From the human T2T-CHM13v2.0 reference genome, Homo sapiens: a DNA stretch of 64,000 nucleotides. The position numbers and the translations under genes were made by a program. The stretch lies in NCBI RefSeq assembly GCF_009914755.1, contig NC_060925.1; one strand, written 5' to 3'. Below, in pieces: positions 37,998 to 39,560 of this stretch; positions within the stretch are counted from its first letter, which is position 1, and each line of letters opens with the position of its first letter. Below the pieces are notes generated by a model that saw only the letters and a list, made by a program, of their open reading frames with translations, did no database searches and was not told where the DNA came from.

Positions 37998-38254
37998 CTG
38001 TGCCGCGTTTTCCTTTTGTATGAGATGGGATGGGATGATGAGAACCACAGGGTGTTGGTGAGCCTGACCCAGGAAAGGCTGCCCTGTCTCCTTATCTCCG
38101 GGGTAAGCCCTGGAGCTGGAAGGCTTGAGAACCTTGCCTAGAATGTTGGAGTTGGGTGAACCATAGAGGCTGATCCTTCATTCCCCCACAAAGACTATGT
38201 TTCCAGAGCTCCTTGTCTGGGGATGTGGCCTGACAAATAGTACTTTGGCATTTG
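37998..38254 (+). repeat. Left arm of a ~257-bp non-Alu inverted duplication
   Basis: Hand alignment to the reverse complement of 39305-39560: 17 substitutions + 1 gap. Confidence 0.97.
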
Positions 38255-38719
38255 TTCACATTTTTATGTGTACAAATTGGGGCCTGGGGGCTGGTGGGAG
38301 CCAGGCCAGGGCAGGAGGGAGGGAGCGGTAACAGCTGAGGGGCCAGCAGCACACGTAGCACTCTGCAGGCAACATCAAATCCTCGCAACCTCATCAGCTA
38401 AGATTGTCATCCCCATTTTACAGATGAGAGAACTGAGGCTCAGAGCAGTAACACAACTCCAAGCAGTGTCACCTCAGAGCCAGAGTTCCCACCCAAGAGA
38501 AGGCCCAAATCACGGGCCAACAGGAAACATGAAGCAAGAGCAAATGAAGCAATTTCTTTTTAATTCCCCACAATTGAATTATGTCTTAGGGCTCAGAAAA
38601 GGAATAACCTACAAGTTGGAGGTCCCTCAACTTGGCATCAGGTTAATTCTGGCTCTGCCAGCAGTAGCTTGCTGAGTTCAGGCCATCAGTCTCCAAGTCA
38701 GATAAGTCCTGATGTTTTA

Positions 38720-38900
38720 TTTTATATTATTTCTTTTTTTTTTTTTTTTGAGATGGAGTCTCATTCTGTCGCCTAGGCTGGAGTGCAGTGGCAAGATCTT
38801 GGCTCACTGCAACCTCCACCTTGCGGGTTCAAGCCATTCTCCTGCCTCTGCCTCCCAAGTAGCTGGGATTACAGGCTCGTGCCACCACACCCGGCAAATT
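38720..38900 (-). mobile_element. 5'-truncated Alu (right monomer only)
   Basis: Perfect 17-bp target-site duplication taagtcctgatgtttta at 38703-38719 and 38901-38917. Confidence 0.92.
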
Positions 38901-38977
38901 TAAGTCCTGATGTTTTAAATGCTAATATTTTATTTAAAGGTAAGTGTGAAACCAACAGCAATGTAATATTAAGACTC

Positions 38978-39280
38978 AGCCAGCCATGGTGGCTCACATC
39001 TGTAAGCCCAGTACTTTGGGAGGCCAAGGCAGGAGGATCACTTGAGGCCAGGAGTTCAAGACCAGCCCCGGCAACATAGCGAGACCCCTATCTCAACAAA
39101 AATTATTTTTTTTAAAAAAAAATTAGCTGGGTGTAGTGGTGTGTGTCTGAAGTCCTAGCTCCTCGGGAGGCTGAGGCAGGAGGATTGCTTGTGCCTAAGG
39201 AGTTGAAGGATGCAGCAAGCAGTGACTATTCAACAGCACTCCAGGCAGGGCAACAGAGCAAGACCCTGTCTTAAAAAAAA
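38978..39280 (+). mobile_element. AluJ-type element
   Basis: Diverged dimeric Alu. Confidence 0.88.
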
Positions 39281-39304
39281 TGTCTTTCCATATAAAAACA
39301 TGTG

Positions 39305-39560
39305 CAAATCCCAAAGTACTATTTGTCAGGCCACATGCCCAGACAAGGAGCCCTGGAAACATGGTCTTTATGGGGAATGAAAGATCAGCCTCTACGGTTC
39401 ACCCAACTCCAACATTCTAGGCAAAGTTCTCAAGACTTCCAGCTCCAGGGCTTAACCCAGAGATAAGGAGACAGGGCAGCCTTTCCTGAATCAGGCTCAC
39501 CAACACCCTGTGGGTATCATCATCCCATCCCATCCCATACAAAAGGAAAACGAGGCACAG
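39305..39560 (-). repeat. Right arm of the ~257-bp non-Alu inverted duplication
   Basis: Reverse complement of 37998-38254. Confidence 0.97.

What the first reader, a model, noticed from the sequence alone, without database searches (positions are those of the whole stretch)
37998..39560. Long non-Alu inverted duplication in intron 1 with mismatches biased toward G-U wobbles on the IFFO2 sense strand
Seen: 37998-38254 is the reverse complement of 39305-39560, with 17 substitutions and 1 gap over ~257 bp (~93%) and ~1.05 kb between the arms. Only the outer ~70 bp looks MIR-derived, and two independent MIR copies would be far more diverged, so this is a local inverted duplication. Seven differences are transversions. 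Of the 10 transitions, 9 (left-arm positions 38023, 38068, 38069, 38099, 38133, 38163, 38176, 38189, 38207) give G-U pairs in the minus-strand pre-mRNA. Only 38196 gives A-C. The one-sided binomial probability is 11/1024, calculated post hoc. Counting wobbles, about 248 of 257 positions pair. Inference: a long, near-perfect intronic duplex, better paired than typical Alu-Alu duplexes, possibly kept as an RNA structure (ADAR substrate, endo-siRNA source, MDA5/PKR ligand or splicing modulator). Caveat: transcription-associated A>G bias and CpG decay (two of the sites) could produce part of the skew without selection.
Basis: partly seen in the sequence, partly recalled or inferred. Interest (0 to 1): 0.85.

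Follow-up and report, generated by a model that had tools for sequence, protein, structure and literature searches.

The report
Old local inverted duplication in IFFO2 intron
A 280-base stretch deep in the first intron of IFFO2 was copied once, in reverse, about a kilobase away, so the unspliced RNA can fold into a long hairpin, but nothing shows that the hairpin is kept for a purpose.

Summary
Window 37989-38270 is the reverse complement of 39289-39567, with 258 matches, 19 substitutions and 4 small gaps. These are the only two copies in the T2T genome. The ends are sharp. No transposon hallmarks were found. The first ~90 nt of each arm is MIR-derived. This makes it a single local inverted duplication, K2P 0.072. 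Both strands are predicted to fold into the ~275-bp duplex.

The case for selection does not hold.
- Over the full arms the wobble count is 9 of 11 (p=0.033 one-sided), not 9 of 10.
- Only 9 of all 19 substitutions preserve pairing (p=0.08-0.19).
- Eight transversions, two A·C mismatches and four gaps disrupt the helix.
- The non-pairing transversions are skewed the same way: C·U 6, G·A 0.

That wider 15-to-2 strand skew is absent from 20 inverted Alu pairs in the same gene and remains unexplained.

The locus lies 12 kb and 21 kb from the splice sites. Published work says intronic dsRNA is removed by splicing. It is best read as a neutral by-product and a new member of a catalogued class. Primate orthologues and editing data would settle the question.

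The parts
37989..38270 (.). Left arm of the inverted duplication (282 nt)
   Evidence: It has the weaker resemblance of its outer flank to MIR heads, so it is probably the derived copy (weak).
39289..39567 (.). Right arm of the inverted duplication (279 nt)
   Evidence: Its outer flank resembles the heads of natural MIR copies more than the left flank does (R>L in 29 copies, L>R in 16, of 56; p=0.077), so it is probably the source copy.
37993..38085 (+). MIR-derived part of the left arm
   Evidence: nhmmer alignment to a natural MIR copy at window 60879-60969 (E=0.17; alignment shown).
39473..39564 (-). MIR-derived part of the right arm
   Evidence: nhmmer alignments to natural MIR copies at window 60880-60969 (E=0.07) and L019 7902-8003 (E=0.17).
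38271..39288 (.). Spacer (loop) of 1018 nt between the arms
   Evidence: About 516 nt remain once the two Alu insertions are set aside (coordinates).
38356..38497 (-). Separate MIR fragment inside the spacer, not part of the arms
   Evidence: Used as an nhmmer query, it finds many MIR copies in the window and in L003-L022. It also pairs with the MIR at 40004-40039 (I5).
38735..38897 (-). Partial Alu with a T-run, lying between 17-nt direct repeats at 38703-38719 and 38901-38917
   Evidence: Rfam SRP/Alu-like match at 38748-38895 on the minus strand; masked repeat 38707-38903; direct repeats read.
38979..39274 (+). Full-length Alu whose A-run ends about 14 nt from the inner end of the right arm
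   Evidence: Rfam SRP/Alu-like matches at 38979-39089 and 39126-39274 on the plus strand; 69.0-75.4% identical to 10 other long Alu hits in the window.
37776..38293 (.). RefSeq functional element 'H3K27ac-H3K4me1 hESC enhancer' covering the whole left arm
   Evidence: Annotation table. No such element covers the right arm.

Best explanation
This is a single, old, neutral local inverted duplication. About 280 bp of IFFO2 intron 1, made of the core-to-3' part of an ancient MIR SINE plus about 185 bp of adjoining unique sequence, was copied once in reverse orientation 0.5-1 kb away. The most likely cause is a replication or repair template switch (inferred). The right arm is probably the source. 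The two copies have since drifted apart independently to about 7% divergence. By recalled calibration that is roughly the human-Old World monkey level of neutral divergence, so the event is tens of millions of years old. Because IFFO2 is transcribed from the minus strand, the pre-mRNA carries both arms and is predicted to fold into a ~275-bp, ~96%-paired hairpin with a 1-kb loop. The loop itself holds a poor inverted Alu pair. The expected fate of such a deep intronic duplex is nuclear ADAR editing followed by removal with the intron. That is a by-product, not a maintained function (inferred). The excess of G·U over A·C is a small-sample feature within a broader strand skew that also affects non-pairing mismatches. 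It comes from chance or from strand-asymmetric mutation, not from selection for pairing.
For: Structure and counts. Only 2 matches in the genome, both being the arms. Ends are sharp, with flanks no better than shuffles (38 of 300 and 59 of 300 shuffles reach the score). Differences are spread evenly; the longest perfect run is 29 nt, so there is no sign of a recent conversion tract. Both arms carry derived changes. With 56 natural MIR copies as outgroup, 38005 (T in 54 of 56) and 38044 (C in 31, A in 1) changed in the left arm, and 38023 (A in 48 of 56) changed in the right arm. K2P is 0.072. The duplex appears in the minimum-energy fold on both strands (266 and 257 inter-arm pairs; duplex energy -505 against -480 kcal/mol), so pairing is a property of the duplication and not of one strand. 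There is no excess of pair-preserving changes among all substitutions (9 of 19, p=0.08-0.19), and transitions are not enriched (11 of 19). Rfam finds nothing in the arms (9 matches, all Alu-like and all in the spacer). Literature: template switching creates inverted repeats and hairpins without selection (PMC5453318, passages). Genome-wide prediction finds 5.13 million dsRNAs, 96% of the genic ones in introns (PMC11838218, sections 9 and 10). Intronic dsRNAs are removed by splicing and are not sensed by MDA5 (PMC12695637, passages).
Against: The strand skew is larger than my controls predict. On the sense strand G·U is 9 against A·C 2, and C·U is 6 against G·A 0, together 15 against 2 (one-sided 0.0012 at p0=0.5 and 0.012 at p0=0.6). 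I defined that combined class after seeing the data. Twenty inverted Alu pairs in the same gene give G·U 354 against A·C 336 and C·U 61 against G·A 64. Without CpG sites they give 274 against 246 and 44 against 47. The Alu pair inside the loop gives G·U 6 against A·C 12. Ordinary local mutational asymmetry therefore does not obviously account for the skew. No orthologous sequence, editing, small-RNA or expression data could be examined, so absence of function is inferred and not shown. The template-switch origin is inferred only from the end product. Which arm is the source rests on p=0.077. The left arm lies in an annotated hESC enhancer, so a DNA-level role for that copy is not excluded.
Confidence: 0.72

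Rival explanations
1. The duplex is a selected RNA structure in the IFFO2 pre-mRNA, for example an ADAR recruitment site, an endo-siRNA hairpin or a splicing modulator. Purifying selection would tolerate changes that keep pairing on the sense strand.
For: G·U is 9 against A·C 2 on the sense strand. The sense duplex is 25 kcal/mol more stable than the antisense one. It is the best-paired inverted repeat in the window. The Alu controls show no such bias.
Against: Eight transversions, 2 A·C mismatches and 4 gaps all disrupt the helix. Pair-preserving changes are 9 of 19, p=0.08-0.19. Transitions are not enriched. The non-pairing C·U class shows the same strand skew (6 against 0), which pairing selection cannot produce. 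The site is 12 kb from the 5' splice site and 21 kb from the 3' splice site (annotation). Rfam finds nothing in the arms. No paper links IFFO2 to editing at this site: 2 papers hold both search terms and, judging by title and abstract start, neither concerns this locus. A search blank of that kind carries little weight.
Confidence: 0.06
2. A strand-specific mutational process tied to the hairpin itself produced the skew. One version is damage to the displaced non-template strand when it folds during transcription. Another is the RNA-editing plus reverse-transcription repair route that Polak and co-authors discuss.
For: The 15-against-2 skew covers pairing and non-pairing classes alike. The five differences that can be polarised are all sense-strand changes in the direction favoured in mammalian introns: A>C, A>G and G>T and two C>T at CpG (contexts). 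Neighbouring Alu pairs lack the skew, so it seems specific to the arms. PMC2927911 describes excess A>G and A>T on the non-transcribed strand and the hairpin-editing model (passages).
Against: Only 17 informative sites exist, and the class was defined after the fact. Polarised changes are of several chemical types, so no single lesion explains them. PMC2927911 reports only a slight A>C over T>G excess. The proposed mechanisms are speculative. Fourteen of the 19 differences are unpolarised.
Confidence: 0.1
3. The two arms are the terminal inverted repeats of one DNA transposon or MITE-like element of about 1.58 kb.
For: There are long inverted termini with sharp outer ends. A 7-nt direct repeat, CAGCCAA, lies near both outer ends.
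Against: No other copy exists in the genome: 2 matches, both being the arms. That search skips very common words and scores only the best candidates. The 7-nt repeat is 23 nt and 4 nt away from the ends, so it is not a target-site duplication. The outer part of each arm is itself a fragment of a MIR SINE. The interior is a MIR fragment plus two Alus.
Confidence: 0.02
4. Two independently inserted, oppositely oriented MIR-containing sequences were later homogenised by gene conversion, so the event is much older than 7% divergence suggests.
For: Both arms begin with MIR sequence. Both outer flanks score slightly above shuffles against MIR heads (left p=0.005, right p=3.6e-7).
Against: About 185 nt of each arm is not MIR and is shared at the same identity. 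There is no conversion-like perfect tract; the longest is 29 nt. Flank similarity between the two sides is nil. The shuffle control preserves only mononucleotide composition, so the small left-flank signal may be compositional.
Confidence: 0.03

Closest known systems
Inverted-repeat Alu (IRAlu) intronic dsRNAs, the main ADAR substrates in human pre-mRNA
   Same: Two inverted copies sit about 1 kb apart in one intron and are predicted to form a ~275-bp intramolecular duplex in a Pol II transcript. The expected handling is the same: nuclear editing and removal with the intron (PMC12695637, passages).
   Different: The arms are not Alu; Alu-like matches occur only in the spacer. The arms arose from one local duplication and not from two retrotranspositions. 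Pairing is much better, 93% Watson-Crick against 80% for 20 local Alu pairs.
Non-repetitive or long, highly paired predicted dsRNAs in the dsRNAscan catalogue (Andrews and Bass, PMC11838218)
   Same: It is a long, nearly perfect intramolecular duplex within a gene locus and in an intron, as are 96% of genic predictions (sections 9 and 10).
   Different: At about 277 bp and 94-96% paired on the sense strand, it falls just below their class of more than 300 bp and more than 96% paired (2,018 of 5,134,754 predictions). Part of each arm is MIR, so it may be filed there as repetitive. I could not consult their tables or website, so I do not know whether this locus is listed.
Template-switch mutations that create inverted repeats and hairpins (four-point model, Löytynoja and Goldman, PMC5453318; hairpin and miRNA birth, PMC8794818 and PMC10710096, search listings only)
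   Same: A nearby sequence is copied in reverse complement in one event. This makes a hairpin-forming repeat with no need for selection (passages).
   Different: The published events are short, with a 14-bp filter mentioned and tens of bases in the examples. Here about 280 bp was copied across 0.5-1 kb. The state before the event is unknown, so the model cannot be fitted.
hpRNA / endo-siRNA hairpin loci of flies and mouse oocytes (recalled)
   Same: A long inverted duplication of non-transposon sequence is transcribed as one RNA.
   Different: No small-RNA evidence is available, there is no known target, the site is deep in an intron, and somatic human cells process long dsRNA poorly (recalled).

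Membership tests
Local inverted duplication (small palindromic duplicate) | Exactly two copies, in cis and in opposite orientation | tested here: met
   The genome-wide DNA search finds 2 matches, both being the arms (100% and 91% identity).
Local inverted duplication (small palindromic duplicate) | Identity far above that of independent copies of the repeat family it contains, with sharp ends | tested here: met
   L against R is 0.90, against a median of 0.48 and a maximum of 0.64 for 1538 pairs of natural MIR copies in the same alignment. The flanks are no better than shuffles.
DNA transposon / MITE with terminal inverted repeats | Multi-copy family sharing the termini | tested here: not met
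   There are no further matches in T2T-CHM13. Caveat: the search skips very common words and closed regions.
DNA transposon / MITE with terminal inverted repeats | Target-site duplication directly flanking the termini | tested here: not met
   The longest direct repeat between the outer flanks is 7 nt, placed 23 nt and 4 nt from the ends.
IRAlu dsRNA | Both arms are Alu elements | tested here: not met
   Alu/SRP-like Rfam matches lie only at 38748-38895 and 38979-39274 in the spacer. The first ~90 nt of each arm is MIR and the rest is unique.
ADAR substrate (edited dsRNA) | Clustered A-to-I editing in both arms in RNA-seq | not testable with these tools
The paper search for IFFO2 plus 'RNA editing' gave 2 papers, neither about this locus by title and abstract start.
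ADAR substrate (edited dsRNA) | Long intramolecular duplex in a transcribed strand | tested here: met
   There are 266 inter-arm pairs in the minimum-energy fold of the sense strand of 37960-39600. This is a prediction only.
Structured RNA maintained by selection | Excess of pair-preserving over pair-breaking changes | tested here: not met
   Nine of 19 substitutions leave a pair, p=0.08-0.19 against 30-35% expected. Four gaps also break pairing.
Structured RNA maintained by selection | Compensatory changes or slower evolution across species | not testable with these tools
hpRNA / endo-siRNA locus | Phased 21-22-nt small RNAs from the arms | not testable with these tools
   No small-RNA data are available.
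Template-switch (four-point) product | Inverted copy of nearby sequence made in one event | tested here: met
   Searches show the end product expected from such an event.
Template-switch (four-point) product | Ancestral state without the copy, and switch points that explain the junctions | not testable with these tools
   This needs an outgroup genome. The junction sequences are listed.

The most novel reading that the evidence does not exclude
The 15-to-2 strand skew of the differences between the arms is real. On the IFFO2 sense strand G·U is 9 against A·C 2 and C·U is 6 against G·A 0, and neighbouring Alu pairs lack the skew. It would record something specific to a long hairpin in a transcribed strand. 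That could be selection acting on the sense RNA, or a heritable mutational footprint of hairpin or dsRNA formation on the non-template strand, such as loss of sense-strand A or gain of T within the duplex.
Probability: 0.08. Interest if true: 0.7.

Novelty: new member of a known kind. Interest (0 to 1): 0.22.

Why it matters
As it stands the locus matters little. It is one more intronic dsRNA-forming site, cleaner than Alu pairs, and useful at most as a natural non-Alu test substrate for nuclear ADAR editing. It could also mediate inversion of its 1-kb spacer through recombination between the arms. The one point worth carrying forward is methodological. In an inverted repeat inside a gene, any strand-asymmetric mutation shows up as an excess of particular mismatch types on one strand. 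Wobble excess alone therefore cannot be read as selection, and the non-pairing classes (C·U against G·A) serve as a built-in control. A survey of young intronic inverted duplications could test whether long hairpins carry their own mutational signature. Such a survey would show whether the skew seen here is general.

Tried and rejected
- **Rfam.** The scan of 37500-40100 at E up to 1 gave 9 matches. All were Alu-derived families below their gathering scores, and none lay in the arms.
- **blastn of the arms against the window.** With the locus masked, the arms plus flanks found only Alu-tail matches and no MIR.
- **Single-sequence nhmmer.** With the arms as query it found 1-2 MIR copies at E of 0.07-0.17. 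The long left-flank alignment has low posterior probabilities and runs into an Alu, so I discarded it. In the reverse direction, 56 MIR copies used as queries gave only 3 with any hit. That was too insensitive to show whether MIR continues past an arm end.
- **Which arm is the source.** I replaced the nhmmer approach with summed pairwise scores, which only weakly favour the right arm (p=0.077).
- **Polarising differences with MIR copies.** This worked for 3 sites. It was ambiguous or uninformative for 38042, 38068, 38069 and 38099, and for the four columns at 37991-37997, where the multiple alignment differs from the pairwise one.
- **Order of the Alu insertions and the duplication.** The plus-strand Alu is 69-75% identical to the other Alus, but the window's inverted Alu pairs have a median of 75.4%. 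I therefore withdraw the 'probably older' wording of my note and leave the order unresolved.
- **Transcription-associated asymmetry.** I considered it as the full explanation of the skew. It points the right way but is too weak in the Alu controls.
- **Single-arm mutation cluster at the time of copying.** Rejected, because derived changes lie in both arms (and the CpG contexts).
- **Retrocopy with RNA editing.** Rejected by inspecting the mismatch table. Only 1 site has the left arm G where the right arm reads A. No separate test was run.
- **Sources I could not use.** Barak et al. 2020 on purifying selection of long dsRNA is not held in the library (one search lists only papers that cite it), so I cite it as recalled. 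The supplementary tables of PMC11838218 and its web resource, which may list this locus, were not seen.
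Full report
**The observation.** The inverted repeat is real and slightly longer than reported.
- The repeat finder gives two collinear inverted pairs: 37995-38186 with 39372-39563 (192 nt, 93%) and 38184-38270 with 39289-39375 (87 nt, 89%).
- A gapped local alignment joins them into 37989-38270 against 39567-39289, with 258 matches, 19 substitutions and 4 gaps of 1-2 nt.
There are 17 substitutions, 1 gap and 7 transversions. Nine of the 10 transitions give G·U on the minus strand at the listed positions, and 38196 gives A·C. That makes 248 of 257 positions paired when wobbles are counted.
- The extra alignment adds a transversion at 37991 and a transition at 38268 that gives A·C. The wobble count over the full arms is therefore 9 of 11.

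**Not chance, not a repeat family.**
- The 200-nt flanks outside and inside the arms are no more alike than shuffles (38 of 300 and 59 of 300 shuffles reach the observed score), so the ends are sharp.
- Among the 66 inverted HSPs of the window, this is the only one of at least 150 nt at 88% identity or more. The other 59 of that length, essentially Alu pairs, have a median of 75.4%.
- A DNA search of the whole T2T-CHM13 assembly with the left arm finds 2 places, the arm itself and the right arm. That search skips very common words and closed regions.
- No target-site duplication flanks the unit. The longest direct repeat between the outer flanks is 7 nt and lies 23 nt and 4 nt from the ends.

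**Anatomy.**
- The first ~90 nt of each arm (37993-38085 and 39564-39473) aligns to natural MIR copies. The remaining ~185 nt has no relative anywhere in the genome besides the other arm.
- In one multiple alignment, L against R is 0.90 identical. The 1538 pairs of natural MIR copies have a median of 0.48 and a maximum of 0.64. Two independent MIR insertions are therefore excluded.
- The 1018-nt spacer holds three elements:
  - an unrelated MIR fragment at about 38356-38497 on the minus strand;
  - a partial Alu on the minus strand, between 17-nt direct repeats at 38703-38719 and 38901-38917;
  - a full Alu on the plus strand at 38979-39274, which ends 14 nt from the right arm.
- About 516 nt of spacer remain without the two Alus. 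I could not order the Alu insertions relative to the duplication.
- RefSeq annotates an 'H3K27ac-H3K4me1 hESC enhancer' at 37776-38293, covering the left arm only.

**Origin and age.**
- K2P distance between the arms is 0.072. From memory, this is about the neutral human-macaque distance. The duplication is therefore probably tens of millions of years old, unless gene conversion has kept the arms alike.
- Differences are evenly spread, with a longest perfect run of 29 nt, so no recent conversion tract is visible.
- I used 56 natural MIR copies as outgroup, cut from the window and from 200 kb upstream. They polarise three differences:
  - 38005: T in 54 of 56 copies, so the left arm changed;
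  - 38044: C in 31 copies and A in 1, so the left arm changed;
  - 38023: A in 48 of 56 copies, so the right arm changed.
- Both arms have therefore drifted.
- The right outer flank resembles MIR heads more than the left does (R>L in 29 copies, L>R in 16; p=0.077). Against shuffles the right flank gives p=3.6e-7 and the left p=0.005. This weakly marks the right arm as the source.
- A reverse-complement copy of nearby sequence made in one step is what template switching produces (PMC5453318, passages). The published events are much shorter, and the state before the event cannot be seen here. This step is inferred.

**RNA folding.**
- ViennaRNA places the arms against each other in the minimum-energy fold of 37960-39600 on both strands: 266 inter-arm pairs on the sense strand and 257 on the antisense strand.
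- Duplex energy is -505 kcal/mol for the sense strand and -480 kcal/mol for the antisense strand.
- The sense duplex is 93.1% Watson-Crick and 96.4% paired with wobbles, or 94.0% if gap columns are counted. Twenty inverted Alu pairs in the same gene give 80.3% and 87.1%.

**Is the wobble bias evidence of selection?**
The test was chosen after seeing the data.
- Selection for a helix should reduce disruptive changes. Yet 8 transversions, 2 A·C mismatches and 4 gaps are present.
- Only 9 of 19 substitutions preserve a pair (p=0.08-0.19 against the 30-35% expected). Transitions are 11 of 19, not enriched.
- The transversions that can be assigned to a strand are all C·U on the sense strand (6 against 0 G·A). 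C·U does not pair.
- The data therefore do not show what selection for pairing predicts.

**The wider skew.**
- Together the two classes give 15 against 2 (one-sided 0.0012 at p0=0.5, two-sided 0.0023, and 0.012 at p0=0.6). I defined this combined class after seeing the numbers.
- The direction fits transcription-associated asymmetry.
  - The sense strand of intron 1 has (T-A)/(T+A) of 0.073 and G+T of 52.5%. The same strand upstream of the gene gives -0.016.
  - Mammalian introns show excess A>G and A>T on the non-transcribed strand, but only a slight A>C excess (PMC2927911, passages).
- The five polarisable changes are sense-strand A>C, A>G and G>T, plus two C>T at CpG (and the contexts).
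- The local controls show almost no asymmetry.

| Control | G·U | A·C | C·U | G·A |
|---|---|---|---|---|
| 20 inverted Alu pairs in the same gene | 354 | 336 | 61 | 64 |
| The same pairs, non-CpG sites only | 274 | 246 | 44 | 47 |
| The Alu pair inside the loop | 6 | 12 | 3 | 2 |

- The Alu pairs share elements and so are not independent. They estimate the expected fraction, not its variance.
- I leave the skew as unexplained. Chance in 17 sites is the simplest reading. A hairpin-linked mutational process or selection is not excluded.

**Function.**
- The duplex lies about 12 kb from the 5' splice site at exon 1 (51562) and about 21 kb from exon 2 (16931). No Rfam family matches the arms.
- The paper search for IFFO2 with 'RNA editing' returned 2 papers, neither about this locus by title and abstract start.
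- Genome-wide prediction lists 5,134,754 dsRNAs. About 2 per Mb are non-repetitive, 96% of genic ones are intronic, and 2,018 are longer than 300 bp and more than 96% paired (PMC11838218, abstract and sections 9-10). This locus falls just under that last class. I could not see that paper's tables or website.
- Intronic dsRNAs are said to be removed with splicing and not sensed by MDA5 (PMC12695637, passages).
- The most likely working is therefore passive. The hairpin forms in the nascent intron, is probably edited by nuclear ADAR, and is degraded with the intron.
- At the DNA level, the arms could mediate inversion of the spacer, and the left arm overlaps an annotated enhancer. Neither point was tested.

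**Verdict.** The 'local inverted duplication' reading is supported. The 'kept as an RNA structure' reading is not supported. This is a new member of a known and catalogued kind, of low interest, with one unexplained strand skew that primate orthologues would resolve.

Noticed in passing
window 37776-38293: RefSeq lists an 'H3K27ac-H3K4me1 hESC enhancer' that covers the whole left arm plus about 210 nt upstream. No element covers the right arm.
   Followed up: no
window 38703-38719 and 38901-38917: Seventeen-nt perfect direct repeats flank the partial minus-strand Alu and its T-run. This looks like an intact target-site duplication inside the hairpin loop.
   Followed up: partly
window 38748-38895 (-) and 38979-39274 (+): The loop itself contains an inverted Alu pair only about 85 nt apart (I3 and I4, 72-59 nt at 75-78%). 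The predicted structure is therefore a hairpin nested within a hairpin. The mismatches of this pair lean the other way from the arms (G·U 6, A·C 12).
   Followed up: partly
window 37966-37972 and 39571-39577: A 7-nt direct repeat, CAGCCAA, lies near but not at the outer ends of the arms, 23 nt and 4 nt away. It is probably chance.
   Followed up: partly
window 16932-51561 (intron 1, minus strand): The sense strand has (T-A)/(T+A) of 0.073, GC skew of 0.032 and G+T of 52.5%. The same strand upstream of the gene (52571-64000) has a T-A skew of -0.016. This is the usual signature of a germline-transcribed gene.
   Followed up: partly
window 38009-38032 and 39521-39544: The MIR part of each arm carries a short tandem run of ATGGG-like units. 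This produces the offset self-match I6.
   Followed up: no
window 37168-37482 and 40047-40096: Further annotated reporter-assay enhancer and silencer tiles flank the locus on both sides.
   Followed up: no
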